From positions 10,830 through 74,829 of the forward strand of contig JAFGJB010000153.1 in NCBI GenBank assembly GCA_016929295.1: a DNA stretch of 64,000 nt, in the 5' to 3' direction. Below are positions 17,482 through 58,328 of the stretch, in pieces (within the stretch, counting starts at the first letter, position 1; the number at the start of each line of letters is the position of its first letter). Both the position numbers and the translations under genes were made by a program. The notes under the pieces are model-generated. The model was not told the DNA's origin. It was given only the letters and a program-made list of their open reading frames with translations, and searched no databases. The stretch is from Candidatus Zhuqueibacterota bacterium (GTDB lineage: Bacteria; Zhuqueibacterota; Zhuqueibacteria; Residuimicrobiales; Krinioviventaceae).

Positions 17482-17510
17482 CGCAAATGTTTCACGTGGA
17501 ACATCATCTG

Positions 17511-20811: not shown

Positions 20812-20820
20812 TTTATCCGC

Positions 20821-20860
20821 AAATACAAAACCCCACTATCGCTTGAACAAGAGTGGGGTG
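20821..20860 (-). terminator. Hairpin plus U-run downstream of yidC (intrinsic terminator or attenuator)
   Basis: Minus-strand RNA reads CACCCCACUCUUGUUCAAGCGAUAGUGGGGUUUUGUAUUU: 7-8 bp GC-rich stem followed by U-tract. It lies only about 10 nt upstream of the mnmE start, so read-through is likely. Confidence 0.5.
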
Positions 20861-20883
20861 TCAGCTCCTTTTCTGGTTTTCAG

Positions 20884-31590: not shown

Positions 31591-31794
31591 ATGCTCAAAG
31601 CGGCATTCAAAAAAATCAAAGAGGCCGATAGTTATAAAAAAAGAGGCGTCCTCTATGCGTCGGTGGCGATTCTTTTCATGCTCTATGAATTCATTTTTCA
31701 TCGCCCGCCGCGTCTGACTGTTTTATTATTGTGGCTCGGCCTCCTCATCATAGCCGTTTTTGTTATGACCACCTTGAAGGATCCGCGACGATGA
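31591..31794 (+). CDS. Small hypothetical 2-TM membrane protein
   Basis: 67 aa ORF, 14 bp after the SpoU stop. Hydrophobic segments VLYASVAILFMLYEFIF and VLLLWLGLLIIAVFVM. Overlaps the next gene start by 4 bp. Confidence 0.35.
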   Translation: MLKAAFKKIKEADSYKKRGVLYASVAILFMLYEFIFHRPPRLTVLLLWLGLLIIAVFVMTTLKDPRR

Positions 31795-41802: not shown

Positions 41803-42226
41803 CGACGTTCGTATCGGCCTGGCTCGACTGGATCAATCTCCCCGGAATATGAAAAAGTTTGGCATCACCATGGCTGTGATATTTGGACTGTTGGCCACGC
41901 TGATATTTATTCTCGGCAGCCGGCCGCAGCGCGCCTGGTGGCTGTGGAGTATCGGCGCTCTCTTCCTTGTCCTGGTATTTTTTCTCCCTTTTCTTCTCAA
42001 ACCCATTCATCGTCTCTGGATGGGACTCTCACTCGTCCTCGGCTATTTCATGTCCCGACTCTTGCTCACTCTTCTCTTTTTCCTCGTCATCACTCCTATC
42101 GGCCTGGCAATGCGTCTATTCGGCAAAGATATTCTCAATGAAAAAATAGAGCCTGGCAAAGACAGCTATTGGATTAAAAGACCCGTAAAAAAGATACTGC
42201 CAGATCGCTATGAAAAATTATTCTAA
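41789..42226 (+). CDS. Small polytopic membrane protein (possible SxtJ-like partner of the carbamoyltransferase)
   Basis: Start ATG 41789 overlaps the carbamoyltransferase stop (41800-41802). About 145 aa with 3-4 TM helices. The SxtJ-like label is inferred from gene context only. Confidence 0.45.
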   Translation: MSLISDVRIGLARLDQSPRNMKKFGITMAVIFGLLATLIFILGSRPQRAWWLWSIGALFLVLVFFLPFLLKPIHRLWMGLSLVLGYFMSRLLLTLLFFLVITPIGLAMRLFGKDILNEKIEPGKDSYWIKRPVKKILPDRYEKLF

Positions 42227-42227
42227 A

Positions 42228-42787
42228 TTTAAAAATCACCAATAAGCATGTCGGTTTACTGATTAATTTCAATGTGTTGCAATTGAAAGACGGAGTGAAA
42301 AGGCTTGTAAACAAGTACGATGATAGTGAATGAGCATACATATTTTCATGCCTCGGCGACACTCGGCGTTCCCGGCGGTTGGGTACGCATTGTGGGAATT
42401 AACCAAATTTCACTTTACTTATCCACAGACAAATCTGGAAAAGTGGTCAAAAGCAGTGTAAAAGCTGTCGATTATGTGTTGATGAATTCGAATTTATCCA
42501 CCTTGATTCGGATTATTTTCAACAAGTGGTGATAAGAGCTTTATTATTCACCTTTATTCCACATTTCATTGTTGATATTCTGAAAAAGAATCAGCGTTGT
42601 TTTTTATAAAGTTATAATTAGTTTTTTAACATTATTACTTCTTTTCAACATATCCACAGCGTCTATTACTATAAATTATTTAAATAAATATTAATATATA
42701 TAATAATTATCTGGAACAGATTAAATTTCTTGTCGTATCCCTCATTATTATAAATATCTTTCATAACAGTTAAATTTGGAGGCTCAA
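42228..42787 (+). promoter_or_regulatory. 560-bp AT-rich intergenic region with DnaA-box-like motifs and promoter elements upstream of tldD
   Basis: Perfect TTATCCACA at 42419-42427; one-mismatch boxes TTATCCACC (42494-42502), ATATCCACA (42649-42657), TTATTCACC (42544-42552). About 100 bp nearly pure A/T at 42661-42760. TAAATTTG (42763-42770) resembles an FCB-type -7 element, followed by GGAGG and ATG 42788. Confidence 0.4.
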
Positions 42788-45654: not shown

Positions 45655-45695
45655 GAAAGATTTACGTTCACATTGACATTATTTGATAGTCTGGA

Positions 45696-45780
45696 AAAAC
45701 CAGACCGAGAATTTTCACGAATGAAGGACTTTAGATTTATGTAACAGCGTCACTATGCGCGTTGTTCTCGGTCTGGTTTT
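45696..45780. repeat. 16-bp perfect inverted repeat with 53-nt spacer at the left edge of the low-GC island
   Basis: AAAACCAGACCGAGAA (45696-45711) and TTCTCGGTCTGGTTTT (45765-45780) are exact reverse complements. The right arm is followed by GTCAAGTTTTATATTT. Lies 41 bp after the pmbA stop. Confidence 0.5.
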
Positions 45781-46221
45781 GTCAAGTTTTATATTTGCAT
45801 TTTCTGCAAAACCGCACGTTGACTATTATCCCTAAAAAAAGCAGAGTTGGCAAAGATTTAATATGTTCTATAAACAATCTATAATAGGCTATTAATAGTC
45901 CCTCAGAAACTTGGCCGCTTTCGAAATATTCTGCTTTTAAAGGTTGTTCTCCATATAAAATAATGCCGGGGAAATTAAATCGAACCAAAAATCTACTATG
46001 TGACAATACTTGATATGCCGTCCCGGGAATAGTTAACGATCTTTATATTTTGCACCGACTGTTCTGTAGAATAAGTTTCGCTTCTCATAACTGATATTTT
46101 TCAGGAAATGCATGTAAGCGCCCCCAAGCCATACTGTGAAGGAAAAGACGAAATTGATTGGCTTGAAAAATGGGGCACGAGGTGCGATCCGAAAACAGAT
46201 GCTACTCTATTGGAGAGAGAA

Positions 46222-49200
46222 ATGAAAAAATTATTCTGTATAATTTTGTGCATCCTTGCTGTATCTACGCTTTTCGCGCAAAACAAGATTGATCCTACCC
46301 TCAAAAAAACCATCGAAAACAATACACTGCGGAAAGTCGATGCCGCAGATGTTGAAGTGCTCATAAAAATAACGAATAGCGACCTGTCCGCGTTGGAAAA
46401 AAGTGGCGCCAAAATAAAATACGTCATAGATGATGAATACGTCCGCGCTGCCGTACCCATTTTTAAAATTACTGAATTAGCAAATAATAAAGCCGTTTGC
46501 TACATAACCGGTTCTCGGCAAATGCAGCCACATAACGACATTGCCGCTTGTGTTTGCGGTGGTATCGTGGCAGCACAAGCCGGTTACACCGGAGAAGATG
46601 TTCTCATTGGGATTGTTGACACAGGACTTGATTTCAAGCATCCTGGATTCCTCAATGCAGATGGCAGTACCAGAGTTTTATACTTCTGGGACCAGACCGA
46701 TTTAGGATCAGACCAGCCAACGAACCAATTTTCCTATGGTTCAGAATGGACGAGCGCCGATATTGACGGCGGAGCCTGCACGTCAAAGGACACCGAAGGT
46801 CATGGCACGCACGTTGCCGGTTGTGCGGCGCAGCATTTTTATCATGACGCAGATGAGCAATATAACAGCGGCACGCTTTCGAACTTGCTCATTGTCAAGA
46901 CTGATTTTAATGGCCTGCACATTTTGGACGGTATTGTTCGAATTTTTCAAAAGGCGGAACAACTTGGCAAACCGGCTATTGTGAATCTAAGCTTAGGAAG
47001 TCGATGGGGTCCCCATGATGGTACTGATCCATTAACGGCTGCAACGGACCTGCTTACAGGACCCGGAAAAATTATTGTGCGATCGGCCGGAAATGATGGT
47101 GCTCGCAAATTTCATAACTATGCCATAGCTGATGCCGATGGCAATAGTATGGTGTTTAAGCTGTCGACAACTGTTGAAAATCTCGTAATTGGATGCTGGT
47201 ATGATGGGTCATCGAAAGTCGAAGCTGAAATTTTCTTGCCAGGTAACTTGAGTACGGGAAAAATTGCTACAGGTAAAGAGGCTACATTTAATATTGGCAA
47301 TACCAGCCGCCTGGAAATCTTAAACGCGCCATATGGCGTTGAGAACTATAATGGCGATAATAATTTAATGATTTCCTTTGTTGGCAAAATTCCAGCGGGC
47401 GAATATAGAATAGTTCTTTTCTCCAATGACAGGCCAGCAGTGTATGCTTGGTTGTATGACTGCTCGGTCGATACAAGTTTTGCCTTTGAAAATTCAAGCG
47501 ACCATTTTAGTCTGGCCAACGAAGCCTGTGGACGGAATGTCATTGTCATTGGTGCTGCAGTCACACGCAAAGAATTTTATGCTGTGGACGAACATGGCAA
47601 AGCGGCAACATGGGTAACACACGAAGAGGAAGAAACAGTAGCGTCGTTCAGCTCTGCTGGGCCAACGCGTGATGGCCGCCACAAGCCGGATGTGGTTATG
47701 CCAGGATCTTATATTACCACTGCCTTTTCCACTGATGCTATTTCGTCAGGCCCAGTAGGATCCTTGAGCATGATGCGCGAAGGTCCCATATATATCAATC
47801 CTTCTACAGTGAATACATTTGCCTATGTCCAGGGCACCAGCAGTTCCAGTCCGATATTTGTCAGTACGGCTGCGAAAACTTTTGCCTTTTTTAAAAAGAA
47901 ATTTGGACATTTCCCGGGTCCGACAGATATAATTGATCAAATCATAAAATATGCTGCAAAACCTGTATTCCAGTTGAAGGACGATTGTCAAAAACCAGTC
48001 GCAGGGCTCTCGCCCGTCTGGGATGAAAAAGCCGGATGGGGATATCTGGATTTACGCGCGCTTTTAAAAGAAGATATCCTCATTGTCACATGCGAGCAAA
48101 CTCAAGCAGATCAACTTGAGGTTCAATTTAGTAATCAGCAGGGCGTCGTCGAGAATCTCAATTCATATGTTATCACCGGCGCTTCGGAATCTCGTGTAGT
48201 GGAACTGCTACGACAGGGAGAAAGAGTCACGCTCACCTTGAATACGCCTTTAACTCCCGGCTTTAGAGATACTTTGAAAATCGACGCGGGCTTGGATCAA
48301 CGCCTCATTCCCATAAAAAAAATCGGCACCATTGTCGAATTGACCGATTTAACGACGAGAATGACATGGGATGCTGCACACTCTCCCTATTATGTGCATG
48401 GACAAATTGTCGTATACGAAAATGCATCGCTGACACTTTTAGCGGGCACGCAAATAGAGTTTATGCCCAATCCAAATGATGGATCTTCCGGGATAGTCGT
48501 TTTAGGTGAGCTGAAGGCATGTGGAGAAGAAAACTCGCCTGTTACAATACTGCCAGCAGCCCAAGCGGACTATTGGGATGGTATTTACATTGATCGAAAA
48601 GGGATGGCAAATCTAACCTGTAGTGAAATTGGCTACGCAATAGATGCAATAATGTGTTGGGGAGGAGATCTGGAAATCCACCACTCGATGATTGCGCATG
48701 CAAAAGGATTCGGTGTTTTCCTTGATAGTTGTGCTGCTAAAATCGATCACCTTCTATTGTGGGATACAAACGGCACTTCTGATAGCGGTAGCCTATGGAT
48801 TCAAAATACAATTGCTGACAACAATTTGTCTCACTTGACGCTTTATCAAAATATGCCGAATGGTATAGTTTCTCTAGGGCAACATCCGATAATTATTGAC
48901 TCTAGTATCATTGTTGAGAGCTCCATCTATGCGGAACCATATTATGGCAGCAAAATAATCATTAATGAATCGGATATATATAATTGCCAAATTTTTGGAA
49001 CTGTAAATGAGAGCGAATGCATTAGTGCTGATCCACGCTTTGAAAATCCGGATTCAGGTGATTTTAGACTGCGAGCTGATTCTCCGTGTCCAACATGGGG
49101 TGCCATAATTGACGACATAAATGATAAAAATATACAAGCTTCACCGTCTGCTTTTCGCATACATCAGAACTATCCTAATCCATTCAATGGCCACACCATC

Positions 49201-49425
49201 ATAAATTTTGATATGCCAAGGAAGGTTCATATCAATTTGGCCATATATAATATTCGAGGTGAACTTGTCAAGACATTGGCAGATAAAGAGTACAATACCG
49301 GCTATTACACACTTTCGTGGAATGGTATTGGCGACTCTGGGCAAATAATGTCTAGCGGAATATATTTTTGCCGTCTATCTGGAGACAGTTTTTCGCACAG
49401 TATTCGAATGCTGTACTTAAAATAG
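46222..49425 (+). CDS. S8 (subtilisin-like) serine peptidase with beta-helix region and T9SS C-terminal sorting domain
   Basis: Start at MKKLFCIILCILAVSTLFAQ (signal peptide; RBS GGAGAGAGAA). Catalytic triad contexts IGIVDTGLD, HGTHVAGCAA, GTSSSSPIFV. Right-handed beta-helix-like repeats in the middle. C-terminal ..NYPNPFNGHTIINF..GIYFCRL..MLYLK is a T9SS CTD. Confidence 0.9.
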   Translation: MKKLFCIILCILAVSTLFAQNKIDPTLKKTIENNTLRKVDAADVEVLIKITNSDLSALEKSGAKIKYVIDDEYVRAAVPIFKITELANNKAVCYITGSRQMQPHNDIAACVCGGIVAAQAGYTGEDVLIGIVDTGLDFKHPGFLNADGSTRVLYFWDQTDLGSDQPTNQFSYGSEWTSADIDGGACTSKDTEGHGTHVAGCAAQHFYHDADEQYNSGTLSNLLIVKTDFNGLHILDGIVRIFQKAEQLGKPAIVNLSLGSRWGPHDGTDPLTAATDLLTGPGKIIVRSAGNDGARKFHNYAIADADGNSMVFKLSTTVENLVIGCWYDGSSKVEAEIFLPGNLSTGKIATGKEATFNIGNTSRLEILNAPYGVENYNGDNNLMISFVGKIPAGEYRIVLFSNDRPAVYAWLYDCSVDTSFAFENSSDHFSLANEACGRNVIVIGAAVTRKEFYAVDEHGKAATWVTHEEEETVASFSSAGPTRDGRHKPDVVMPGSYITTAFSTDAISSGPVGSLSMMREGPIYINPSTVNTFAYVQGTSSSSPIFVSTAAKTFAFFKKKFGHFPGPTDIIDQIIKYAAKPVFQLKDDCQKPVAGLSPVWDEKAGWGYLDLRALLKEDILIVTCEQTQADQLEVQFSNQQGVVENLNSYVITGASESRVVELLRQGERVTLTLNTPLTPGFRDTLKIDAGLDQRLIPIKKIGTIVELTDLTTRMTWDAAHSPYYVHGQIVVYENASLTLLAGTQIEFMPNPNDGSSGIVVLGELKACGEENSPVTILPAAQADYWDGIYIDRKGMANLTCSEIGYAIDAIMCWGGDLEIHHSMIAHAKGFGVFLDSCAAKIDHLLLWDTNGTSDSGSLWIQNTIADNNLSHLTLYQNMPNGIVSLGQHPIIIDSSIIVESSIYAEPYYGSKIIINESDIYNCQIFGTVNESECISADPRFENPDSGDFRLRADSPCPTWGAIIDDINDKNIQASPSAFRIHQNYPNPFNGHTIINFDMPRKVHINLAIYNIRGELVKTLADKEYNTGYYTLSWNGIGDSGQIMSSGIYFCRLSGDSFSHSIRMLYLK

Positions 49426-49432
49426 TAGCCTC

Positions 49433-52405
49433 ATGAATGCCGACGTACTACAAAATTACAATCAAAACGATCGTGAGGTGAACATATTTATTTCCTCGAC
49501 ATTTCTTGACATGAACAATGATCGTGATTTTTTAAAGAACAAAGCGTTCTTGCAGCTCGCGGAAATATGTGAAAATAGGGGTGTGATCCTTACAGTCGTC
49601 GATTTGCGCTGGGGTGTTAATACTGATGAGATCGATAGTGAGAACGAAACCGAAAAACTCGAAAAAAAGGTGCTTGATGTTTGCTTTGATAGAATTGACC
49701 GATGTAATTATTTTGTCGGCATTCTTGGGGCGAGATATGGCTATATACCGAGGCATCTTTCAAGTCATATTATCGAACTGTTTGATGAAAAGTCGTCACC
49801 TATTGGACGTTCCGTAACCGAACTTGAGATAATTTATGCGACCCGGAAAAAAGGCTTGAACCAGGATAATATGCTCTTTTGCCTGCGCGATGATGATTAT
49901 TCTAAAAGTTTAGGTGCAGATTTTATCGAACATAATAACGAAAATCGTCAAAAACTAAAAGAACTATGTGATTACGTCAAGAGATATCAACCTCATTTTA
50001 TCGAAGGCTACAAGAATGTTCATGTGCTCAACAAAGGTATATTTGAATTTTTTAAAAATGTTCTAGACAGGCGATTCCCAGCGCCGGCAGCTCATGATCC
50101 GAATGAACTTTATTCATTAACCCACTACTTTTACGCCCTGCGGCAGCGACGATACTATGAAAAAAATGATCTTCTTCACTCAGAATTGAATCAATTCATA
50201 GAAAAGAAAGATCAAACTCTCCTGGTACTTGAAGGGGCGATCGGTTCTGGTAAATCATCTTTGCTAGCAAACTGGGGACTGTCATTGCTCGAAAAGAACA
50301 CAGCTAATGTCATTCTTCACTTTGTTGGGATAAGTAGTCAAAGTACAACATGGCAATCCACTCTAAGACACATGATATATGAACTTTGTTTTGATAACGG
50401 ATTGCCCTTTCTAATGCCTGAGAATGAGCTTGATCTACCCATGCTGCTGTATCAAACATTGCAGACGGTTAGCAAAAAACGCCGTGTGGTCATCGTTATT
50501 GACGGAATAAATAAATTCGAATTTGAAAATGGGACAACAGATTTATTTTGGCTGCCAGGAAATCTGCCCCAGAACGTGTCAATTATCATTTCAACTACAG
50601 CTCCCATCGAACAATTTTATAATCATGACGCTTGTAAATTCAAACTTGGGCATGAAGCTTTCTATGCCAGGGGGCAACAGCGTGACGAATTTATAAAACA
50701 ATACTTGGACAAAATACAATTTCGCGAGCTAAGCAAACAGCAAATTTCAAAGATTAGCAATCATCACCTTGCGTCAACGCCAAAGTTTTTGGTGACGATT
50801 CTGGAGAGTCTTTCATTATTTGGACTCGGAAAACGTGACAGTCCAGAATCAACCGAGAAAAACGACGATTATAAATATTATCTAGATAGCGAACTAGAAT
50901 ATTACATATCATCTAATAGTTATGTTGAATTATACGAGCGGATTTTTGACAAAATTGAGAAATTCAGTCAAGAAAGTAAGGAAATTTTGCGAGATGGCCT
51001 TCGATTTATATTTTACTCAAAAGACGGGCTTGCTGAAGAAGAGGTACTCCATTTAATCAGCAGAACGACCAAAAGTGAAATAATGTATATTGACTGGCAG
51101 CCTGTCTACTTGTCGATAGCAAACCTATTGGTAAATAATTCGGGCTTGCTATCGATCAGAGAAGAAGCAATCCGCCAGGCCGTGCAGAAAAAGTATGCGA
51201 TTGGCAAAGATTCTGAATTAGCATATAGGCAGGAAATACTGAATTATTTTGTGAGAAATAGAAATTCAACTCGTAAACTACAAGAATACGCGTGGCAGCT
51301 ATCACAATTGGGCTACAATGAAAAGTTGTTTAGGTATTTAAAACAGAGATCAGTATTTCATGATTTTTGGAGATTAGATCCTATTTCATTAAAAAAATAT
51401 TTTGTTTTTCTTATTAACAGTAAAGCAATTTATTTAAAAGATATCGCCGAGCATTTTGCAAAATTAGCCAAATCGAACAGTAAGAATGCAAAATTCCTTG
51501 AATCATTGTCTATTTTTTTATTTGATTTGGGTTTCTATGAGCATGCAAAAGAAATACAAGAAGACTTGATCAATCAGTTCAAAACGAAGGACAAAAATAT
51601 CTATCAAAGAACGTTGAGATTACTGGCTAATAGCGAGCTAAGACTTGGCAACTGGAGCAATGCTTATAGATACTATAAAAAGCAAGCATCAATTGTTACG
51701 CCTGCCGTATGTTTGGATGATTTTAATTCATTGCAAAAAAGCTATGGAAATCAGGCTATCGTTCTCGTAAAAATGGGTAAGAGTAAAAGGGCTCTTGAGC
51801 GCCTTGAAAAACAAGAAAATATTTGCAAAGACTATCATTTCTACGATGGTTTGATGAAGTGCTACGGCACATATGCGAATGCTTTTATTCAATTGCGAAA
51901 GTTAAAGGAAGCCTTGGAGTATCAGCATGAACAGGAGATATTAGCCAAGCGTATGAACGATCTCAAGGATTTGCATATCTCGCTTGGCAACAAGGCTGTT
52001 ATTTTGCAGACTTTGGGCAAATTTGAAGAAGCATTTCGTACTCATGAGCAAGAACGAGAAATATGCCTTAAAATTGGTGACCGCTACGGGCTTCAAGCTT
52101 CTTATGGCAATCAGGGCCATATTTTTTTAAAAAGAGGGATGTATATTGAAGCACTATCTCTTTATCTTCGACAAGAAGAAATTTGCATGGACATATCTGA
52201 AATGTGGGGCCTGCAAAATGCTTATTTTAATATAGGCGTTGCTTATACAAGATTAAAAAATCCACTCAAAGCAGCAGACTTTATAAGCAAGTGCATAAAA
52301 ATATGTGTTGAATTGCACTATAAAAAAGACTTACGCAAAGCTAAAATTCTACTATTTGCTTTAAAATTACTTAAACTTGGATTCAAGTCAGCCAAAAAAG
52401 CCTAA
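49433..52405 (+). CDS. NLR-like STAND NTPase: DUF4062-like N-terminal domain, NACHT-type P-loop NTPase, C-terminal TPR array
   Basis: N-term VNIFISSTFLDMNNDRDFL..VDLRWGV..GARYGYIP matches DUF4062 conserved blocks. Walker A LLVLEGAIGSGKSSLLANW (about nt 50231-50254); Walker B RRVVIVIDGINKFE (about nt 50486-50509). C-terminal about 300 aa of 34-aa TPR/KLC-like repeats. No signal peptide or TM. Start 7 bp after the S8 stop. Confidence 0.85.
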   Translation: MNADVLQNYNQNDREVNIFISSTFLDMNNDRDFLKNKAFLQLAEICENRGVILTVVDLRWGVNTDEIDSENETEKLEKKVLDVCFDRIDRCNYFVGILGARYGYIPRHLSSHIIELFDEKSSPIGRSVTELEIIYATRKKGLNQDNMLFCLRDDDYSKSLGADFIEHNNENRQKLKELCDYVKRYQPHFIEGYKNVHVLNKGIFEFFKNVLDRRFPAPAAHDPNELYSLTHYFYALRQRRYYEKNDLLHSELNQFIEKKDQTLLVLEGAIGSGKSSLLANWGLSLLEKNTANVILHFVGISSQSTTWQSTLRHMIYELCFDNGLPFLMPENELDLPMLLYQTLQTVSKKRRVVIVIDGINKFEFENGTTDLFWLPGNLPQNVSIIISTTAPIEQFYNHDACKFKLGHEAFYARGQQRDEFIKQYLDKIQFRELSKQQISKISNHHLASTPKFLVTILESLSLFGLGKRDSPESTEKNDDYKYYLDSELEYYISSNSYVELYERIFDKIEKFSQESKEILRDGLRFIFYSKDGLAEEEVLHLISRTTKSEIMYIDWQPVYLSIANLLVNNSGLLSIREEAIRQAVQKKYAIGKDSELAYRQEILNYFVRNRNSTRKLQEYAWQLSQLGYNEKLFRYLKQRSVFHDFWRLDPISLKKYFVFLINSKAIYLKDIAEHFAKLAKSNSKNAKFLESLSIFLFDLGFYEHAKEIQEDLINQFKTKDKNIYQRTLRLLANSELRLGNWSNAYRYYKKQASIVTPAVCLDDFNSLQKSYGNQAIVLVKMGKSKRALERLEKQENICKDYHFYDGLMKCYGTYANAFIQLRKLKEALEYQHEQEILAKRMNDLKDLHISLGNKAVILQTLGKFEEAFRTHEQEREICLKIGDRYGLQASYGNQGHIFLKRGMYIEALSLYLRQEEICMDISEMWGLQNAYFNIGVAYTRLKNPLKAADFISKCIKICVELHYKKDLRKAKILLFALKLLKLGFKSAKKA

Positions 52406-52426
52406 AAACAAAAAAGGAGAACTAAA

Positions 52427-52789
52427 ATGAAAGTGCTATGCAAAATTTTGATTGTAGCCTTTATCATTCTCTCAATTTCGGGATGCAAGGAATACACAAA
52501 ATTTAAAGTCAGTATTATCAACGACAGTTCATCTGAAATTACAGAAATTGAGCTGGGGATGATTGGCGTAGAAAAGACCGTTTCAGTTAATAGCCTGGCG
52601 GTTGGAGCAAGTACAAAGGTTTTTGTATTTTTATTGAAAAAGCTAGAGGAAGGCGTACCAGTACCAATTAGCTATGGTGATTATAGAGGTGGCTATAGTC
52701 AAAAAGGTGAAAAAAAACCCATATTTATTACCACACCTAATAAAAAAATTGAAATCAAAATAAATGATGATTCCTATTCCCCGATCTAG
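52427..52789 (+). CDS. Small lipoprotein (120 aa), third gene of island operon
   Basis: Lipobox ..FIILSISGC. RBS AAGGAGAAC 6 nt upstream. 21 bp after the NLR gene stop. Low GC like the NLR gene. Confidence 0.55.
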   Translation: MKVLCKILIVAFIILSISGCKEYTKFKVSIINDSSSEITEIELGMIGVEKTVSVNSLAVGASTKVFVFLLKKLEEGVPVPISYGDYRGGYSQKGEKKPIFITTPNKKIEIKINDDSYSPI

Positions 52790-55314
52790 TCAACAAGCAC
52801 AACCTTTAGCTGTCGGACTCTCTCGCCCATCTTCAGCCGCACTAAATAGACCCCGCTCGCCACAGCCTTATCATGCTCATTCAATCCATTCCATACAACG
52901 GAATGCTGCCCCGCGGCTGTCCTCCCCTCAAGCAGAATCCTGACGCGCCGGCCGCACACATCAAATATACTCAAGCGCACATCTTGCTCTTTCGGGACAT
53001 AAAACTCTATCCTCGTCGCGGCGTTGAACGGATTCGGATAGGCTTTTTTCATAACAAAACTATCCGATACCGCCCTTTGAACAACTTTGTTCACAATTTC
53101 GAAAAACGCTTTTATCGAGACATCACTATGGAGTGTCATGGATATTTGCGATTCTTGTTCAGCAATTCCCTCCCAGCCGACGAACCTGAACCCTTCATCG
53201 GGGAGCGCGGCGAGCTGAATGGGGACATCGCGATAGTAGATGCCACTCCACTCTTTTTCTATGGTCAATGAGTTGATCTGCAGCCGCCCGACGCCGCGGG
53301 GCTGCACATCTGCATGCACATCAGCTAAACCAGCGAGATTGAATTCATCTATAACGTGATCATGCAGGTAATCGCGACGATTGGCGAGAAAATTTTCGAC
53401 GTAACTAACATTCCGACGCCACTGCGTTTTGCTGCCGCCCCAGCGCGACAGATGCGCGCCAATTTCAGGATCGAGCTGCGCCGTCAACTTGCCCAGTTTC
53501 GCCAGGGTGACCTCCTCGCTGAAAAAAGAATTCATGAAATCGGCCAACTTGTTGATGAACATACAGGTGAAATTTTCATTTTCCAGTATCTTGCGAAAGA
53601 GAAAAGTGGACTCGGGCGGATTGGGCCAGTCCGGTCCGTCCTCCTCGCGGTAATAGGCGATGGTGTTGTCCATGTAGGCATCCGGCGCAAAGTGAAAATT
53701 GGGCACGAACAGGCGCATGGCGAAGGAATGATCAGTGTCATATAACAGCCAGCGATAACGCGATCCTGGATCATGCGAACGCCAGAATTTGCAGTTGTGG
53801 CCAGGACCGTCATGGTTGGCGAAAAAGATCTGGACAGCCATATAGGTGAGATAGTTGTCGACGTCCATCTGCGTCTTAACGTAATCGGCATGGGCGTCAT
53901 CCTGCAAATCATGGTCGAGGAGATAGTCGATGAGCGAGTTGTAGTGCTCGGCGCTGCCTTCGACGACCAGCGGATAGAGGGTGTGATAATCATCCAAAAT
54001 GTCCACCTCATCCGGATCGACGCCATGATGGGACGCGAGATAATCTTCATTCAGCTTTTCGCGGATCTCATAGATGCCCCAATAATCGCCATTCAGGTAA
54101 AGGTGACAGGGACGGTAAAGTTGATTATCAATATCCACATCCCGATCATCGAGCAGGAGGGCCGTCAAACCATCGCGAAACTGCACGCCACCTTCATTGT
54201 GCGTGTTATCGCTGCCGCCATTGCGCAGTAAAAATGATTTAAAGGTCGTCACGGAATAACCGGGGAAAAGAGCGTACTCCAGTTCGTCCGCACCATAGCC
54301 GCTACGCATGAAAATGGCAAACGATTTTTGCGGCAGCGTGCGCGTTGTCTTGCCGAACATCTTGATGCCCGCATTGACGCTCAAGCCGCGACCATCGGGC
54401 TCATACAGCTCGAGGTGCACCGGCCGCTCCCAGTCTTCCCAATAATTGGCCGGCGGCCCAATGGGATTGCTGGGATAGCCGCCCATGGCCGTGCCATTGC
54501 CGACGACATAGATGCCAATGTCGTCATCAAAAAGGTTGTCCGGATGCGTCGATATCGAGACCAGCGGGATGCCGCTCGTCACATCGACAAAATAGGTATA
54601 AGTGACCACAGCGCCGGCCAGTTTGCCCGTTTCGAAACAACGCGCTTTCAAGACGGTCGTCCGATTGATGGTGATGGGAGAAAGATAAGAGTGAGAGTTG
54701 ATATTCGGATCCGCGCCGTTCGTCGTGTAGCGGATCAGGCTGCCGGCGGTAGACGAGGAGAGGGCGACTGCGAGGGGCTGGCTGTGCAATCCGCCAGGTG
54801 GCGAGATCAACGGTTCGGGCGCATAGCCGGCAGCCGGCGCGGCGTCGTTGGCCGCTCGCGGCGTCGGCCGGCTGTAAAAAGCCCATTGACCCGGATCAGC
54901 AGGCGTGCGTCCGTAGGAATGATCCACAGCAAGAGGGGGGACGGTGAGGTCATCGAGGATCCTGCCCGACGCGTCGGAGAGCAGAATGCGTTCACCCCTG
55001 GATTTGATCTTAAAGTTGGTGTGCAACGAGTTCGGCGTGCGGCGATTTTTGTCGGATGCAAACACGACGAGGAAAGCATTCGTGGCAAGAGAGATGTTGG
55101 GAAAAGTCCATTTGTGCGGTTCTTCGGCATCATCTGACAGTCCATAACCGTTCAGATTGATGGGTGAACCCGGATTATAGAGCTCGATCCAGTCGGGATA
55201 GTCATCATCCTCATCTGCGAGGATGGAGGCATTCAATGACATCACCTCGTTGATGAGCGGAGCTTGAGAAAAGCAGAGTGCAATCAATGAAATTGCCAGC
55301 ATAAAGATTTTCAT
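52786..55314 (-). CDS. CotH-family (atypical kinase) protein with N-terminal lamin-tail domain and T9SS C-terminal sorting domain
   Basis: Start taken at ATG 55314 (MKIFMLAISLIALCFS signal peptide; the track ORF begins 6 nt earlier at TTG). LTD-like segment INEVMSLNAS..DWIELYNPG. CotH core ..YLNGDYWGIYEIREKLNEDYL... C-terminal ..KKAYPNPFNAATRIEF..GVYLVRLKMG..KVVLVD is a T9SS CTD. Confidence 0.85.
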   Translation of the reverse strand: MKIFMLAISLIALCFSQAPLINEVMSLNASILADEDDDYPDWIELYNPGSPINLNGYGLSDDAEEPHKWTFPNISLATNAFLVVFASDKNRRTPNSLHTNFKIKSRGERILLSDASGRILDDLTVPPLAVDHSYGRTPADPGQWAFYSRPTPRAANDAAPAAGYAPEPLISPPGGLHSQPLAVALSSSTAGSLIRYTTNGADPNINSHSYLSPITINRTTVLKARCFETGKLAGAVVTYTYFVDVTSGIPLVSISTHPDNLFDDDIGIYVVGNGTAMGGYPSNPIGPPANYWEDWERPVHLELYEPDGRGLSVNAGIKMFGKTTRTLPQKSFAIFMRSGYGADELEYALFPGYSVTTFKSFLLRNGGSDNTHNEGGVQFRDGLTALLLDDRDVDIDNQLYRPCHLYLNGDYWGIYEIREKLNEDYLASHHGVDPDEVDILDDYHTLYPLVVEGSAEHYNSLIDYLLDHDLQDDAHADYVKTQMDVDNYLTYMAVQIFFANHDGPGHNCKFWRSHDPGSRYRWLLYDTDHSFAMRLFVPNFHFAPDAYMDNTIAYYREEDGPDWPNPPESTFLFRKILENENFTCMFINKLADFMNSFFSEEVTLAKLGKLTAQLDPEIGAHLSRWGGSKTQWRRNVSYVENFLANRRDYLHDHVIDEFNLAGLADVHADVQPRGVGRLQINSLTIEKEWSGIYYRDVPIQLAALPDEGFRFVGWEGIAEQESQISMTLHSDVSIKAFFEIVNKVVQRAVSDSFVMKKAYPNPFNAATRIEFYVPKEQDVRLSIFDVCGRRVRILLEGRTAAGQHSVVWNGLNEHDKAVASGVYLVRLKMGERVRQLKVVLVD

Positions 55315-55323
55315 TTGCAAAAC

Positions 55324-55536: not shown

Positions 55537-55751
55537 GCAAGCCTCATTTTCATACGTGGCAATAATGGATATAAAGATATGAAAATATTTCTTACATTGT
55601 AAAAATATTTCGCGCCTGACTATTTTCGATTTATCGACTGCGTTTACGCGCCTTTATTTTCAATAGGTTGGCGACCTTGAAAATACGATAGTATGGCACA
55701 GATGTTGTCCCATTTTCTTTGGTACAATCTCATCAATCATGGAGGAAAAGC

Positions 55752-58328
55752 ATGCGACACATTTTAACGCTGTTGTGTTTTGTTCTGCCGGCCGCACTCC
55801 TGACGCAGACAACTTTTAGCGCCGATGCCTACGAGCAATTTCTGCAGGATAACGCCAATATGACTGCACAGCAGATCTTGCAACGTCACCAACCTAGTAT
55901 GCAGTATTATAATGATCGCAAAGATAAATTGCAAGTCGCTGATTATGCCTATCTCGATTCCGTGCAGATGAAATACGGGCTCACGGCTAATGAAATGGAA
56001 AAACTGCAGAAAAACCATTTTGTCGTCAGCGAACGGCTTTCTTTCGATTGTTTTGGGCGGGCTCTGCATGATATCTATCAAAAGGATTTGCCTGTCATGG
56101 TGACCAGCGATGCCATTTTGTACGCGTTGCATTTTTCCTATGATCGAATTCTCTTTGATATCGAGCGCACCATACTCGAAGCCAAATTGAAGCAAGTTCT
56201 TGACGGCCTGTATTCGAGTTTTGAAAAACTGCAAAGCGAATACGGCAGTGAGCATGTCTTGCAGGAGCCACTGCAGGACGTCGATCTCTACATCACCCTG
56301 GCAAAATCGCTGCTGGATGAACAAGTGTCGCCGCCGCATCATGCTGACAAGAGCGATGTCGACGCTTTGTGGAAAGCCATTGCCAATGAGCAAATGACTT
56401 TTATGCCGCTATTCTCCGAGCGCGCTCGCAAACTGGATTTCAGCCAGTTCACCGTTCGCGGCCACTATACGAACGAGTTCTGGGATATCGGCGGCAAGCG
56501 TACGCTGGGGAATTACTTCAAGGCCATGATGTGGCTCGGCCGCATGGATTTCTATCTGACACCGCCGCCGGTCGGCCCCGAGGAAATGCCATGGACGCGC
56601 GAAGAGATCAGTCGCATGATCGCCGGCTCGCTTTTGCTGAATGAGCTGCTCGATCTCGCCGGCGTTCGTGACGAACTGAACGAGATCGATGCCATCATCA
56701 ACTTTATGGTCGGCGAGAGCGACAACCTGACGCCGGCGGAGTTGGCAGATGTGGTCGCTGAATTGACTATAACGCCGCTCTCCATCTACGACGAGACGGT
56801 CTACGATGAGCTGCAGAGCGAGCTCGTCTCCGAGGTCGTCTATGGCCAGCGCATCATGTCCGCTTTCTTCATCGTCGATCCTTTTGCCAACAAACCGGAC
56901 GAGCTGCCCATTTCCTATCGCTTGAGCGGGCAACGGTTCATCATCGATTCCTACGTGCTGGCGAATGTGGTCTATGATCGGATCATCTTTGACAATTATA
57001 AAGTGTGGCGGCCGATGCCCGATCCGCTGGATGCGATGTTTGTGCTCGGCAACGACAATGCGCTGCCTCTTTTACAGGAGGAGATCGAAGAATACAAATA
57101 TGCCTCGCAACTCGAAGCCTTGCGCTATCTTGTCGATGCCTACGATGCGGACTTTTGGGGCAACTCGCTCTACAACGTCTGGCTGCAGGGCATTCGCGCT
57201 CTCAATCCATCGGCGCAGGATGAGCACGCGCCCTATTTCATGCGGACCGTCGCCTGGCAGCAGCAAAAGCTGAACACCCAGTTGGCCTCCTGGGCACAGC
57301 TGCGGCACGACAACCTGCTCTACGCCAAACAGTCTTATACCGGCGGCACATCGTGCTCCTATCCGCACTCTTTTGTAGAGCCCTATCCCGATTTCTATCA
57401 ACAGATCGCTGCCTTTGCCGAAAAGGCTGAAAACCAGCTCATCCCCCTGTTGCCGGATGGTTCCTGGGAAGCCAATCTTTTGAAAAGATTTTTTCCTCAA
57501 GTCAGGGAAGTGATGTTGAAACTCAAGGCATTGGCGCAAAAGGAATTGGCCGGACAACCTTTTGCTGAAGATGAGATTCAATGGCTAAAGACCATGCTGT
57601 TCATCGACGGCATGAGCGGCGCGCCGCCGTTCTCCGGCTGGTATTCCGATCTGTTTTATAAACTGGAGATGACAATGGATGGGCAATATGAAGGGCACGA
57701 CTATCTCGTCGCCGATGTGCACACCCAGCCGACGGATCTGGGAGGCGCCGTTGTCGGCCGTGTTTTGCACGTCGGTGTCGGCGAGGTGAATCTCGGGCTC
57801 TTTCTCGCGCAATCGCCGTCCATGCAGTATCAGCCCATGGTTTTTGCCGGACCTGTGATGTCGTACTATGAAAAAATTACCGAGAACTTTAAGAGACATA
57901 CGGACGAGGAATGGGCCGAGCTGGTGATCAAGAAACAGCTGCCGCCACGGCCCGATTGGGTCAATGTCTATTTGACGGATGAAAATGGCAATGCCCGATC
58001 GACTGGTCGCGAACTGCCCGGCATGGAATATGTGCAGACGGACGTGGATGACATCTCCCTGCCGGACAAGAGTTCCTTGTTGCAGAATTACCCGAATCCA
58101 TTCAATCCAACGACATCCCTGCGCTATCAGATCAAAACGGCGGGGCAGGTCAAATTAGCGGTCTATAACACCCTGGGCGAAGAAATTGCCCTGCTGGTGA
58201 ATGAGAGCCATGAGCCAGGTGAATATCGAGTTGAATGGAATGGCCGGGATTTTCCGACCGGACTTTATTTTGCTGTGCTCGAAGCCGGTCAGTTACGCAA
58301 AACGATAAAAATGATATTGGTAAAATAA
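55752..58328 (+). CDS. Large secreted hypothetical protein with T9SS C-terminal sorting domain
   Basis: Start at MRHILTLLCFVLPAALLTQ after GGAGGAAAAGC. 859 aa. C-terminal ..QNYPNPFNPTTSLRYQI..GLYFAVLEAG..KMILVK is a T9SS CTD. No catalytic motif recognised. Confidence 0.75.
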   Translation: MRHILTLLCFVLPAALLTQTTFSADAYEQFLQDNANMTAQQILQRHQPSMQYYNDRKDKLQVADYAYLDSVQMKYGLTANEMEKLQKNHFVVSERLSFDCFGRALHDIYQKDLPVMVTSDAILYALHFSYDRILFDIERTILEAKLKQVLDGLYSSFEKLQSEYGSEHVLQEPLQDVDLYITLAKSLLDEQVSPPHHADKSDVDALWKAIANEQMTFMPLFSERARKLDFSQFTVRGHYTNEFWDIGGKRTLGNYFKAMMWLGRMDFYLTPPPVGPEEMPWTREEISRMIAGSLLLNELLDLAGVRDELNEIDAIINFMVGESDNLTPAELADVVAELTITPLSIYDETVYDELQSELVSEVVYGQRIMSAFFIVDPFANKPDELPISYRLSGQRFIIDSYVLANVVYDRIIFDNYKVWRPMPDPLDAMFVLGNDNALPLLQEEIEEYKYASQLEALRYLVDAYDADFWGNSLYNVWLQGIRALNPSAQDEHAPYFMRTVAWQQQKLNTQLASWAQLRHDNLLYAKQSYTGGTSCSYPHSFVEPYPDFYQQIAAFAEKAENQLIPLLPDGSWEANLLKRFFPQVREVMLKLKALAQKELAGQPFAEDEIQWLKTMLFIDGMSGAPPFSGWYSDLFYKLEMTMDGQYEGHDYLVADVHTQPTDLGGAVVGRVLHVGVGEVNLGLFLAQSPSMQYQPMVFAGPVMSYYEKITENFKRHTDEEWAELVIKKQLPPRPDWVNVYLTDENGNARSTGRELPGMEYVQTDVDDISLPDKSSLLQNYPNPFNPTTSLRYQIKTAGQVKLAVYNTLGEEIALLVNESHEPGEYRVEWNGRDFPTGLYFAVLEAGQLRKTIKMILVK

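What the first reader, a model, noticed from the sequence alone, without database searches (positions are those of the whole stretch)
49433..52405. Bacterial NLR-like STAND NTPase with DUF4062-like N-terminal domain and TPR sensor array, in a low-GC island
Seen in sequence: a 990-aa cytoplasmic protein has a tripartite architecture. Residues about 15-150 carry the DUF4062 hallmark blocks (FISSTFxDMxxDRDxL, VDLRWGV, GxRYGYIP). Residues about 255-400 form a NACHT-type P-loop NTPase (Walker A GAIGSGKSS; Walker B VVIVIDGINKFE, i.e. hhhhDG rather than the hhhhDD of AAA+/NB-ARC). Residues about 690-970 are a TPR array of the kinesin-light-chain type.

Established knowledge: STAND NTPases with C-terminal repeat sensors and variable N-terminal effectors (Avs, bNACHT families) are antiphage and conflict systems. 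DUF4062 occurs N-terminal to NACHT modules in both bacteria and animals but has no assigned biochemical activity.

Inference: this is a candidate antiviral/programmed-cell-death sensor whose effector domain is uncharacterised. Its low GC (about 36%) relative to the chromosome (about 50-55%) suggests horizontal acquisition.
Basis: partly seen in the sequence, partly recalled or inferred. Interest (0 to 1): 0.85.

Follow-up and report, generated by a model that had tools for sequence, protein, structure and literature searches.

The report
NLR-like immune sensor with NADase effector
This is an intact single-gene bacterial NLR-like sensor in which a TPR sensor and a NACHT-type switch control an N-terminal DUF4062 domain, which three 2026 preprints showed to be a NAD+-destroying antiphage effector; it is a credible but no longer mysterious defence gene sitting in a horizontally acquired low-GC insertion.

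Summary
ORF 49433-52405 (+) encodes a 990-aa protein with a DUF4062 domain (about 15-215), a NACHT/NPHP3-type P-loop NTPase plus winged-helix module (258-700) and seven TPR units (701-985).

[quoted passage not shown] It acts as an abortive-infection effector in Avs2, Swarozyc, Vulcan, Vesta and Evangelion, and it is active in human TEP1.

The gene lies in a 7.1-kb compositionally foreign block together with a secreted S8 protease and a lipoprotein. This block is absent from the same PmbA-CotH slot in six related KSB1-type genomes. Relatives elsewhere mostly sit among conflict genes and never next to S8 or lipoprotein genes, so it is a single-gene system.

Verdict: a new, divergent member of a known kind. 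The family has more than 1,300 clusters. NACHT-type NIR-TPR proteins have been noted in the literature, but I found no direct test of one in the papers read. Interest is modest.

The parts
49433..52405 (+). Complete gene for the 990-aa NIR(DUF4062)-NACHT-TPR NLR-like protein. The true start is the ATG at 49433; the public annotation (P0001, 964 aa) starts at M27.
   Evidence: ORF. 100% match to P0001 from a candidate division KSB1 bacterium. Residues 14-26 (beta-A strand, FISSTF) are invariant in the family and align to TEP1, so the upstream start is required. Full-length model pLDDT 88.5, pTM 0.81.
49475..50077 (+). NIR / DUF4062 TIR-like NADase effector domain (residues about 15-215): five parallel strands (15-22, 52-56, 93-98, 147-152, 189-193) flanked by helices.
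49826..49828 (+). Codon of E132, the predicted catalytic glutamate (motif S127-V-T-E-L-E132), equivalent to TEP1 E1008.
   Evidence: Chain 11gz_A index = TEP1 residue - 893, anchored on R908/R954/R976 = chain R15/R61/R83 and on the crystal construct 895-1113. Chain E115 aligns to E132. E132 is invariant in 89/89 relatives and E130 is present in 87/89.
50078..50203 (+). Helical linker between the effector and the NTPase (residues 216-257).
   Evidence: Helices 223-241 and 246-257 in both models. Poorly conserved: query-to-family identity 0.20.
50204..50662 (+). NACHT/NPHP3-type P-loop NTPase core (residues 258-410).
   Evidence: Scanned alone: NACHT 31.4 bits (cut-off 26.7), NPHP3_N 31.2 (24.8), NB-ARC 20.5 (below 23.5). 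Strands 263-268, 292-297, 352-357, 382-388 and 400-405.
50234..50260 (+). Walker A GAIGSGKSS (268-276); the lysine is K274.
   Evidence: G271, G273 and K274 are invariant in 89/89.
50486..50521 (+). Walker B VVIVIDGINKFE (352-363); D357 followed by G-I-N-K.
   Evidence: D357 conserved in 88/89. Position 358 is G/A/S. Position 360 is N in 63 and D in 24. Position 361 is Q in 75. The NACHT signature D[GAS]hDE quoted in the Kibby et al. preprint is only half met.
50663..51532 (+). Helical domain, winged helix (beta-hairpin 566-575) and second helical domain (residues 411-700), completing the STAND switch module.
   Evidence: Secondary structure of the full-length model. Weak NPHP3_hel hit, 14.8 bits, below cut-off. 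Foldseek: STAND-TPR protein PH0952 (6mfv_A) E 5.7e-13 over 761 columns, SAMD9 E 4e-9, Avs3 (8dgc_B) E 2.7e-8.
51533..52387 (+). C-terminal TPR sensor array: 14 helices forming seven TPR units (residues about 701-985), of the LGN/Pins/kinesin-light-chain type.
   Evidence: TPR_12 61.1 bits, TPR_1 45.7. PDB sequence hits to GPSM2/LGN, Pins and KLC. Model helices 702-981. Among the least conserved parts of the family.
45657..52789 (.). The 7.1-kb compositionally foreign insertion that carries the gene, between the convergent core genes pmbA (ends 45654) and cotH-like (stop at 52786).
   Evidence: Nucleotide synteny with the closest relative L007 stops at 45656 and resumes at 52790. The gap there is 1.2 kb with different cargo. 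GC3 is 0.33-0.40 against 0.47-0.65 elsewhere. Tetranucleotide z is up to 11. No tRNA, integrase or flanking direct repeats were found.
46222..49425 (+). Co-inserted upstream gene: secreted S8 subtilase with a signal peptide (MKKLFCIILCILAVSTLFAQ) and a T9SS C-terminal sorting domain. Its stop is 7 nt before the STAND start. It is probably co-transcribed cargo, not a functional partner.
   Evidence: Peptidase_S8 87.5 bits; Por_Secre_tail TIGR04183 29.3 bits (cut-off 23). GC3 0.399, z -2.7. No S8 gene next to any of 6 homologues. Absent from the slot in 6 relatives.
52427..52789 (+). Co-inserted downstream gene: 120-aa predicted lipoprotein (lipobox ISGC), with no family hit. Probably cargo, not a partner.
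   Evidence: ORF. No Pfam, PADLOC or NCBIfam hit. GC3 0.331. No similarity to the gene downstream of homologue P0011.

Best explanation
The gene encodes a self-contained, single-protein NLR-like immune sensor.

In the resting state the C-terminal TPR array and helical domains hold the NACHT-type NTPase module closed (inferred).

Binding of an invader-derived ligand to the TPR array releases the module. By analogy the ligand is most probably a conserved phage structural or packaging protein.

The NTP-bound NACHT modules then oligomerise. This clusters the N-terminal NIR (DUF4062, TIR-like) domains and so activates them.

[quoted passage not shown] NAD+ depletion arrests the infected cell (abortive infection) and protects the population.

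Shown here: the architecture, the fold, retention of the catalytic and nucleotide-binding residues, the foreign origin of the locus, and the conflict-type neighbourhoods of relatives. Inferred by homology: NADase chemistry, oligomerisation-driven activation, the phage trigger and the abortive outcome.
For: Architecture: Pfam DUF4062, NACHT/NPHP3_N and TPR_12 are all above their cut-offs. The full-length AF2 model has pLDDT 88.5 and clear domain boundaries. Foldseek hits a STAND-TPR protein, SAMD9 and Avs3.

Effector identity:
- E 5e-20 (single sequence) and 1.9e-51 (family profile) to the crystal chain of the human TEP1 NADase domain.
- The catalytic Glu equivalent (E132 = TEP1 E1008) is invariant in 89/89 relatives. 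R101 (= TEP1 R976) is conserved in 88/89.

Published function of the domain: it converts NAD+ to ADPR and nicotinamide. Glu-dependent antiphage defence with abortive-infection phenotypes was shown in PsAvs2 (a STAND+TPR protein triggered by the terminase), Swarozyc (triggered by the portal), Vulcan, Vesta and Evangelion. TEP1 domain activity rises with protein concentration, consistent with activation by oligomerisation.

Switch module: Walker A G271/G273/K274 are invariant and Walker B D357 is in 88/89.

Conservation pattern typical of immune NLRs: the effector is the most conserved part, and the TPR and helical sensor region the least.

Context:
- The gene lies in a 7.1-kb foreign block absent from six related genomes at the same slot.
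- 5 of 6 homologue loci contain conflict genes: TIR_2, SLATT, PemK, AbiEii, ThiF/JAB, RelA-LSDAT, integrases and DUF4062-STAND paralogue clusters.
- No conserved partner gene was found, and no candidate signal-responsive effector gene is evident nearby. Both points fit a self-contained NAD+ depleter.
Against: No experiment exists on this protein or, among the papers I read, on any bacterial NACHT-type NIR-TPR protein.

The only STAND example tested (PsAvs2) is an Avs2, and no family member matches any Avs or NLR model in PADLOC 2.0.

The window protein is a long-branch member, at 35% identity in the NIR domain where the family averages 55%. It deviates at several positions:
- L25 where TEP1 has R908. 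The R908A mutation reduces TEP1 activity. The family has R in 48, L in 17 and K in 11.
- It lacks the family's 'STLPGR' arginine and R398 in the NTPase.
- It lacks the acidic DE pair of the NACHT Walker-B signature.

In this window there are no other recognisable defence genes around it. The slot it occupies carries non-defence cargo in relatives. The trigger is completely unknown.
Confidence: 0.68

Rival explanations
1. The NIR domain here does not deplete NAD+. It acts either as a generator of a NAD+-derived signal or as a non-catalytic homotypic interaction or scaffold module. Many animal TIR domains behave this way, and NPHP3, NWD1 and NWD2 may do so too. The NACHT-TPR part would still act as a sensor and switch.
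For: Full-length NWD1, NWD2 and NPHP3 were inactive as NADases in vitro, and the NIR authors themselves raise functional diversification. The window protein has L25 instead of the TEP1 R908 equivalent. Its STAND module scores as NPHP3_N.
Against: The catalytic Glu is invariant across 89 relatives, together with R31, D57, R59, W60 and R101. That pattern argues for retained catalysis. No candidate signal receptor or effector gene is evident in the island or conserved near homologues. Tested DUF4062 enzymes made only ADPR, with no cyclic products.
Confidence: 0.14
2. The S8 subtilase, the STAND protein and the lipoprotein form a three-gene functional system. For example, the protease could be an effector or processing partner.
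For: The three genes are co-directional with 7-nt and 21-nt gaps. They share atypical GC3, and all three are absent together from the slot in relatives. The S8 protein weakly matches a PADLOC 'subtilase' model, E 2.5e-11.
Against: The S8 protein has a Sec signal peptide and a T9SS sorting tail, and the small protein has a lipobox. Both therefore leave the cytoplasm, while the STAND protein has no export signal. None of six homologue loci has an S8 or similar small gene adjacent. The S8 gene is compositionally less extreme than the STAND gene (z about 3.5 against 11), so they may not even share a donor.
Confidence: 0.06
3. It is a non-immune signal-transduction STAND, a regulator of a housekeeping or developmental process, vertically inherited in KSB1.
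For: In this window the surrounding genes are housekeeping or secreted enzymes with no defence genes. One homologue (L003) sits between housekeeping operons. Some STAND-TPR proteins, such as MalT and AfsR, are regulators; NCBIfam shows weak AfsR and TPR hits.
Against: There is no DNA-binding or other regulatory output domain; the output is a NADase-type domain. The gene is absent from six related genomes at the orthologous slot and is compositionally foreign. The nearest relative is only 34-36% identical and comes from another phylum-level group. Most homologue contexts are conflict islands.
Confidence: 0.05
4. It is a decaying, functionally inert remnant of a defence gene carried on an old insertion.
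For: It is a long-branch sequence that has lost several family-conserved residues (the PGR arginine, R398, Y150C, E100A, G78K). No mobility genes or repeat boundaries remain.
Against: The 990-codon reading frame is uninterrupted, and every family-invariant residue is retained (F19, S21, S22, F24, D26, R31, D57, R59, W60, G61, C84, F94, G103, S127, E132, G271, G273, K274, W373, P375, P379, G532). The high-confidence model covers all domains. The nearest relative P0003 shares the same NTPase deviations, which suggests a subclade trait rather than decay.
Confidence: 0.07

Closest known systems
PsAvs2 (Pseudomonas chlororaphis Avs2 with a DUF4062/NIR effector; Le Mouellic et al., bioRxiv 10.64898/2026.09.04.749371)
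   Same: The same three-part logic in one polypeptide: N-terminal DUF4062/NIR domain with a catalytic Glu, a central STAND NTPase and a C-terminal TPR-like sensor. PsAvs2 was shown to deplete NAD+ to ADPR and nicotinamide and to give abortive-type defence.
   Different: The STAND and sensor modules are not Avs2-type. Neither this protein nor 40 relatives hit any Avs model in PADLOC. Here the NTPase scores as NACHT/NPHP3_N, and the TPR array is of the regular LGN/KLC type, 7 units. The trigger is unknown, whereas PsAvs2 responds to the terminase large subunit.
Bacterial NACHT (bNACHT) NLR-related antiphage proteins (Kibby et al. 2022/2023)
   Same: A NACHT-type module with a winged helix, an N-terminal effector, a C-terminal super-structure-forming repeat 'antigen receptor' and a single-gene system. 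Kibby et al. report that the Walker A lysine is essential in bNACHT01.
   Different: The tested bNACHTs carry other effectors or short C-termini. The D[GAS]hDE signature is only half met here (D-G-I-N-K). The Pfam NACHT score is marginal (27.0 against 26.7 for the full-length protein). There is no PADLOC NLR or bNACHT hit.
Eukaryotic NIR-NACHT proteins: TEP1, NWD1/2, NPHP3, TTC41
   Same: A DUF4062/NIR domain directly N-terminal to a NACHT module. The NIR domain matches the TEP1 crystal chain at E 5e-20, with the catalytic Glu and R976 equivalents conserved. NPHP3 has the same NIR-NACHT-TPR order, and NPHP3_N is above its cut-off here.
   Different: TEP1 has TROVE and WD40 domains and works in vault particles. 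NPHP3, NWD1 and NWD2 were inactive NADases in vitro. The NPHP3_hel and TPR_NPHP3 models do not reach threshold on this protein. The bacterial gene is mobile and patchily distributed rather than a conserved cellular component.
Swarozyc, Vulcan, Vesta and Evangelion (DUF4062 defence systems without a STAND module)
   Same: The same effector domain and catalytic Glu. All are single- or two-gene abortive-infection systems that deplete NAD+ when a sensor region detects a phage protein (portal; lambdap79).
   Different: Those systems couple NIR to helical-stalk/AUX, HEAT or small ligand-binding domains, with no P-loop switch. Here activation is expected to go through NTP-dependent NACHT oligomerisation.
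PH0952 STAND-TPR protein (PDB 6mfv) and Avs3 (PDB 8dgc)
   Same: The best whole-protein structural matches: E 5.7e-13 over 761 columns and 2.7e-8 over 1124 columns. Both share the NTPase-WH-helical-TPR arrangement.
   Different: Sequence identity is low (10-14%). PH0952 has no NIR effector, and Avs3 has a nuclease effector and a terminase-specific sensor.

Membership tests
DUF4062 / NIR TIR-like NADase domain (PF13271) | Sequence match to the family model above the curated threshold | tested here: met
   PF13271 51.3 bits against cut-off 24.7, residues 18-136 covering profile positions 2-82 of 82. phmmer E 5.3e-20 to the TEP1 NADase domain chain 11gz_A.
DUF4062 / NIR TIR-like NADase domain (PF13271) | TIR/NDT-like flavodoxin-type fold (five parallel strands, beta-alpha repeats) | tested here: met
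DUF4062 / NIR TIR-like NADase domain (PF13271) | Conserved catalytic glutamate (PsAvs2 E108, KpSwz E97, Vulcan E98, VstA E103, TEP1 E1008) | tested here: met
   E132 aligns to TEP1 E1008 through the arginine-anchored numbering of 11gz_A. It is invariant in 89/89 relatives.
DUF4062 / NIR TIR-like NADase domain (PF13271) | Active-site arginines that support activity in TEP1 (R908, R976) | tested here: inconclusive
   The R976 equivalent R101 is present (88/89 in the family). The R908 equivalent is L25 here; the family has R in 48, L in 17 and K in 11. The effect on activity or on NAD+/NADP+ preference is unknown.
DUF4062 / NIR TIR-like NADase domain (PF13271) | [quoted passage not shown] | not testable with these tools
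   Requires an enzyme assay or cellular NAD+ measurement.
NACHT clade of STAND NTPases | Match to PF05729 above the gathering score | tested here: met
   27.0 bits against 26.7 on the full-length protein (marginal). 31.4 bits on residues 245-406 alone. NPHP3_N 31.2 against 24.8. NB-ARC 20.5, below 23.5.
NACHT clade of STAND NTPases | Walker B signature D[GAS]hDE (a small residue after the Mg-binding Asp, then two acidic residues) | tested here: not met
   The sequence is D357-G-I-N-K. The D[GAS]h part is present but the DE pair is replaced by N-K. Family: position 360 is N in 63 and D in 24; position 361 is Q in 75 and E in 2. The signature definition comes from the Kibby et al. preprint. The module is therefore NACHT-like (NPHP3/TEP1-type) rather than canonical.
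NACHT clade of STAND NTPases | Intact Walker A GxxxxGK[ST] | tested here: met
   G268-AIGSG-K274-S275. G271, G273 and K274 are invariant in 89/89.
NACHT clade of STAND NTPases | Helical domain and winged helix C-terminal to the NTPase core | tested here: met
   The model has helices 414-462 and 478-565, a beta-hairpin at 566-575, then helices to 700. Foldseek matches to the STAND proteins 6mfv, SAMD9 and Avs3 span this region.
Avs (antiviral STAND) families Avs1-5 | Match to family HMMs for the STAND and sensor modules | tested here: not met
   No Avs model hit for this protein at E<=0.01 or for 41 family members at E<=1e-5 in PADLOC-DB 2.0. Newer Avs families (for example Avs7) are not in that library.
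Avs (antiviral STAND) families Avs1-5 | Sensor binds a conserved phage protein (terminase, portal, MCP) and confers phage resistance | not testable with these tools
   Needs phage challenge or co-expression screens. No phage of KSB1 bacteria is available.
Defence-island / mobile conflict gene | Variable presence at a conserved locus and foreign composition | tested here: met
   Synteny with L007 breaks at 45656 and resumes at 52790. The block is absent from 6 related genomes. GC3 z = -3.4 and tetranucleotide z = 11.
Defence-island / mobile conflict gene | Neighbouring known defence genes | tested here: inconclusive
   There are none in this window, and the slot carries non-defence cargo in relatives. 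However, 5 of 6 homologue loci contain conflict genes. The literature reports 20% of NIR genes near defence genes against 3.9% expected.

The most novel reading that the evidence does not exclude
The NACHT/NPHP3-type NIR-TPR proteins would form a large branch of prokaryotic NLRs that I found no direct test of. It has at least 1,333 clusters at 50% identity and is missed by PADLOC 2.0. It would be distinct from Avs2 and would be the prokaryotic counterpart of eukaryotic NPHP3/TTC41.

Under this reading, the divergent KSB1/Calditrichota-type subclade represented here could use NTP binding without hydrolysis, because it has lost the 'PGR' arginine and the acidic Walker-B pair. It could also sense a new class of trigger. 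It would offer a tractable model for how the NIR domain of the ciliopathy protein NPHP3, inactive in the in-vitro assays reported, might be switched on.
Probability: 0.15. Interest if true: 0.6.

Novelty: new member of a known kind. Interest (0 to 1): 0.3.

Why it matters
If it is active, this protein would extend the newly defined NIR (DUF4062) NADase effector to NACHT-type NLR-like sensors, and to an uncultured phylum (KSB1). That would add to the picture that NAD+ depletion driven by NLR oligomerisation is an ancient immune strategy shared from bacteria to the proteins TEP1, NWD1/2 and NPHP3 in animals.

In practical terms it gives three things:
- A clean, single-gene candidate with named mutants (E132Q, K274A) for testing.
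- An example of a family that 2023-era defence-finder HMMs do not catch.
- A corrected gene start, since the public annotation removes the first beta-strand of the catalytic domain.

It no longer offers an 'unknown effector' to discover, so its value is incremental.

Tried and rejected
- Searches for mobility signatures around the island found nothing convincing. There is no tRNA in the window. There are only short chance-level direct repeats and no flanking att-like repeats. There is no integrase or transposase among the ORFs, no tandem repeats and no Rfam hits.
- The promoter and terminator scan was uninformative: 32 promoter-like sites against 20.6 expected, and terminators at the chance level.
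- I tested whether the slot is a dedicated defence hotspot and rejected the idea. Relatives carry an AbgT transporter, a Na/H exchanger, a T9SS protein and a DUF4143 ATPase there.
- I tested whether the downstream lipoprotein resembles the operonic gene downstream of homologue P0011. There is no similarity.
- I could not obtain the PsAvs2, KpSwz or NPHP3 sequences by accession, so no direct pairwise or phylogenetic placement against them was possible.

Full report
**1. Observation**

All the quoted motifs are present: FISSTF 19-24, VDLRWGV 56-62, GARYGYIP 99-106, Walker A GAIGSGKSS 268-276 and Walker B VVIVIDGINKFE 352-363.

Pfam supports the three-part architecture with scores above the curated thresholds:
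- DUF4062: 51.3 bits (cut-off 24.7)
- NACHT: 27.0 bits (26.7)
- NPHP3_N: 25.8 bits (24.8)
- TPR_12: 61.1 bits (30.1)

Scanned on its own, the NTPase segment reaches 31.4 bits for NACHT and 31.2 for NPHP3_N, while NB-ARC stays below threshold.

Two small corrections apply. The Walker A lysine is K274, not K273.

**2. What DUF4062 is**

A literature search found three 2026 preprints.

- Osinski et al. (10.64898/2026.05.01.722283) show that DUF4062 is a TIR-like NADase that makes ADP-ribose and nicotinamide. They define the portal-activated Swarozyc system (catalytic E97), solve the human TEP1 domain structure and show that TEP1 E1008 is catalytic.
- Le Mouellic et al. (10.64898/2026.09.04.749371) rename the domain NIR. 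They show that a DUF4062-STAND-TPR Avs2 protein (PsAvs2, E108) depletes NAD+ on phage infection and is toxic with the phage terminase. They add the Vulcan and Vesta systems. [quoted passage not shown]
- Ibarra-Chavez et al. describe the Evangelion family.

**3. Does the window protein have a functional-looking NIR domain?**

Residues 14-185 match the TEP1 crystal chain 11gz_A at E 5.3e-20. A profile of 89 relatives matches it at E 1.9e-51.

I anchored the chain numbering on the three arginines named in the paper: R908, R954 and R976 correspond to chain R15, R61 and R83. This agrees with the stated crystal construct 895-1113. TEP1 E1008 is therefore chain E115, which aligns to E132 of the window protein.

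E132 is invariant in 89/89 relatives, and E130 is present in 87/89. R31, D57, R59, W60 and G61 are also invariant, and R101 (= R976) is present in 88/89.

- the CMP hydrolase MilB (9.8)

This is the same hit spectrum that the NIR paper reports for PsAvs2.

One deviation is that the TEP1 R908 equivalent is L25. Leucine is a common family state there (R in 48, L in 17, K in 11).

**4. The switch and the sensor**

The full-length model is confident (pLDDT 88.5, pTM 0.81) and gives these boundaries:

| Region | Residues |
|---|---|
| NIR | 15-215 |
| Linker helices | 223-257 |
| P-loop core | 258-410 |
| Helical domain plus winged helix (hairpin 566-575) | to about 590 |
| Second helical domain | to 700 |
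| TPR array: 14 helices, seven units | 702-981 |

Foldseek of the whole model finds a STAND-TPR protein (6mfv_A, E 5.7e-13 over 761 columns), SAMD9 and Avs3 bound to terminase (8dgc_B, E 2.7e-8). The LGN/Pins TPR domains match the C-terminus.

Walker A G271/G273/K274 are invariant, and Walker B D357 is present in 88/89.

The strict NACHT signature D[GAS]hDE, as defined in the Kibby et al. preprint, is only half met: the sequence is D-G-I-N-K. The family consensus is D-A-L-N-Q.

The window protein and its nearest relative P0003 also lack the family's 'STLPGR' arginine and R398. I therefore call the module NACHT-like, of the NPHP3/TEP1 type, rather than canonical NACHT.

No Avs or NLR model in PADLOC 2.0 matches this protein or 40 relatives.

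**5. Family**

Searching residues 1-600 (NIR plus NACHT, no TPR) against 1.84 billion representatives gave 9,332 hits at E<=1e-3 and 1,333 at E<=1e-30. The best hits align over residues ~12-590 in one stretch. The NIR-NACHT fusion is thus a large family.

Named members come from KSB1, Calditrichota, Acidobacteriota, WOR-3 and Sericytochromatia. The window protein is a divergent singleton. Its best non-self match is 34-36% identical, and its identity to the family is well below the family's own average in every domain.

| Domain | Window protein vs family | Family average |
|---|---|---|
| NIR | 0.35 | 0.55 |
| TPR | 0.26 | 0.37 |
| Second helical domain | 0.20 | 0.35 |

The effector is the most conserved domain, and the helical and TPR sensor region the least. 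This is the usual pattern for NLR-type immune receptors.

**6. Genomic setting**

The window is core chromosome of a candidate division KSB1 bacterium: mfd, surA-like genes, rsmG-mnmG-mnmE-yidC, bamA-like, GH94, tldD/pmbA and several T9SS-secreted enzymes.

Among 36 ORFs, only two are GC3 outliers: the STAND gene (0.357, z -3.4) and the upstream S8 protease (0.399, z -2.7). The 120-codon downstream gene is also low, at 0.331. Tetranucleotide distance peaks at z = 11 over the STAND gene and is about 3.5 over S8.

For an empty-site test I fetched PmbA loci from species-representative genomes. In the closest relative (L007, KSB1, PmbA 85% identical), nucleotide synteny stops at window 45656, 2 nt after the pmbA stop, and resumes at 52790, at the cotH-like stop. 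There the gap is 1.2 kb and holds a frameshifted AAA_14/DUF4143 ATPase, against 7.13 kb in the window.

Five further relatives keep tldD-pmbA, and in several cases cotH or DUF3160. None has the S8 catalytic domain, the STAND gene or the lipoprotein. Their slot holds an AbgT transporter, a Na/H exchanger, a T9SS protein or other genes.

The three genes are therefore an insertion in a generally variable slot between convergent core genes. I found no tRNA, integrase or flanking repeats, so the mechanism of insertion is unknown.

**7. One gene or three?**

The S8 stop is 7 nt before the STAND start, and the lipoprotein gene follows after 21 nt, so co-transcription is likely. However, the S8 protein has a signal peptide and a T9SS sorting tail, and the small protein has a lipobox. 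Both are exported.

Six homologue loci on long contigs show no S8 or similar small gene next to the STAND gene. Instead they show:
- clusters of DUF4062-STAND paralogues with RelA-LSDAT, AbiEii and an integrase (L001)
- PemK, TIR_2 and ThiF/JAB genes (L002)
- two PNP_UDP_1 genes between housekeeping operons (L003)
- TIR_2, SLATT and TIR-TPR genes (L004)
- Imm49, an integrase and MqsA/SocA (L005)
- a DUF4062-NACHT-WD40 paralogue (L006)

I conclude that this is a single-gene system. Its relatives live mostly in conflict islands.

**8. Mechanism**

Shown here:
- the architecture and the fold
- retention of the catalytic and nucleotide-binding residues
- the foreign origin of the locus and the neighbourhood pattern of relatives

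Inferred from PsAvs2, Swarozyc, TEP1 and STAND biology in general:
- ligand binding to the TPR array releases autoinhibition
- NTP-bound NACHT modules oligomerise
- clustered NIR domains become active, matching the concentration-dependent activity of the TEP1 domain
- E132-dependent hydrolysis of NAD+ to ADPR and nicotinamide depletes NAD+ and aborts infection

No candidate signal-responsive partner gene is evident nearby, which favours bulk NAD+ depletion over second-messenger signalling.

Caveats:
- Full-length NWD1, NWD2 and NPHP3 were inactive in vitro.
- This protein is a long-branch member with the deviations listed above.
- The trigger is unknown.

**9. Verdict**

The gene is a new and divergent member of a known kind, the NIR-effector NLR-like defence proteins. 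It belongs to a NACHT-type NIR-TPR sub-family that the literature mentions, but I found no direct test of one in the papers read. Interest is modest (0.3).

The most novel reading still open is that this NACHT/NPHP3-type branch works differently from Avs2-NIR and can serve as a model for NPHP3-type proteins. I put that at about 15%.

Noticed in passing
window 49433-49513 (and P0001): The public annotation of this gene (P0001, 964 aa, 'tetratricopeptide repeat protein') starts at M27. That removes the invariant beta-A strand FISSTF of the NADase domain. Several other family representatives also begin at the equivalent conserved Met of the 'FRDM' motif (query 27-29 aligned to their residue 1-3), so this looks like a recurrent gene-calling error.
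   Followed up: partly
window 45692-45784: A perfect 16-nt inverted repeat (45696-45711 and 45765-45780) forms a long hairpin (dG -33.8 kcal/mol, z -4.0 against shuffles) followed by a U-rich run. It lies just downstream of pmbA and just inside the non-syntenic block. It is probably the pmbA terminator, or possibly a relic of the inserted element.
   Followed up: partly
L007 4749-5691 (KSB1 Zgenome_0027), orthologous slot: In the closest relative, the pmbA-cotH slot holds a low-GC (0.40) AAA_14 + DUF4143 ATPase gene split into two overlapping frames. It is apparently frameshifted, that is, different and possibly decaying cargo.
   Followed up: partly
window 31731-33743, 46222-49425, 52786-55320 (-), 55719-58328: Four large proteins with T9SS C-terminal sorting domains cluster within 27 kb: an M1 peptidase, the S8 subtilase, a CotH-kinase/lamin-tail protein and a DUF3160 protein. 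This suggests a secreted-enzyme neighbourhood typical of FCB-group bacteria.
   Followed up: no
window 16852-22665 and about 22.7-23.0 kb: The rsmG-mnmG-mnmE-yidC cluster lies on the minus strand. Gene orientation flips from minus (1-22.7 kb) to mostly plus (23-62 kb) right next to it, so the replication origin may be nearby. The cumulative GC-skew minimum, however, is near 42 kb.
   Followed up: no
window 25760-29182: A 1,140-aa ORF with no Pfam hit lies immediately upstream of a POTRA/Omp85 (BamA/TamA-like) gene. It may be a TamB-like partner too divergent for Pfam.
   Followed up: no
window 41803-42775: A roughly 1-kb AT-rich stretch (GC 0.38) between the carbamoyltransferase gene and tldD is conserved at about 80% with the L007 relative. 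It contains a 163-aa hydrophobic ORF (41735-42226) and about 550 nt without a convincing ORF.
   Followed up: no
L001 (ERZ25039479 contig_18900) and L006: Some genomes carry several DUF4062-STAND paralogues side by side with different sensors (TPR, WD40 or none). This looks like a local expansion of NIR-NLR genes reminiscent of NLR clusters in eukaryotes.
   Followed up: no
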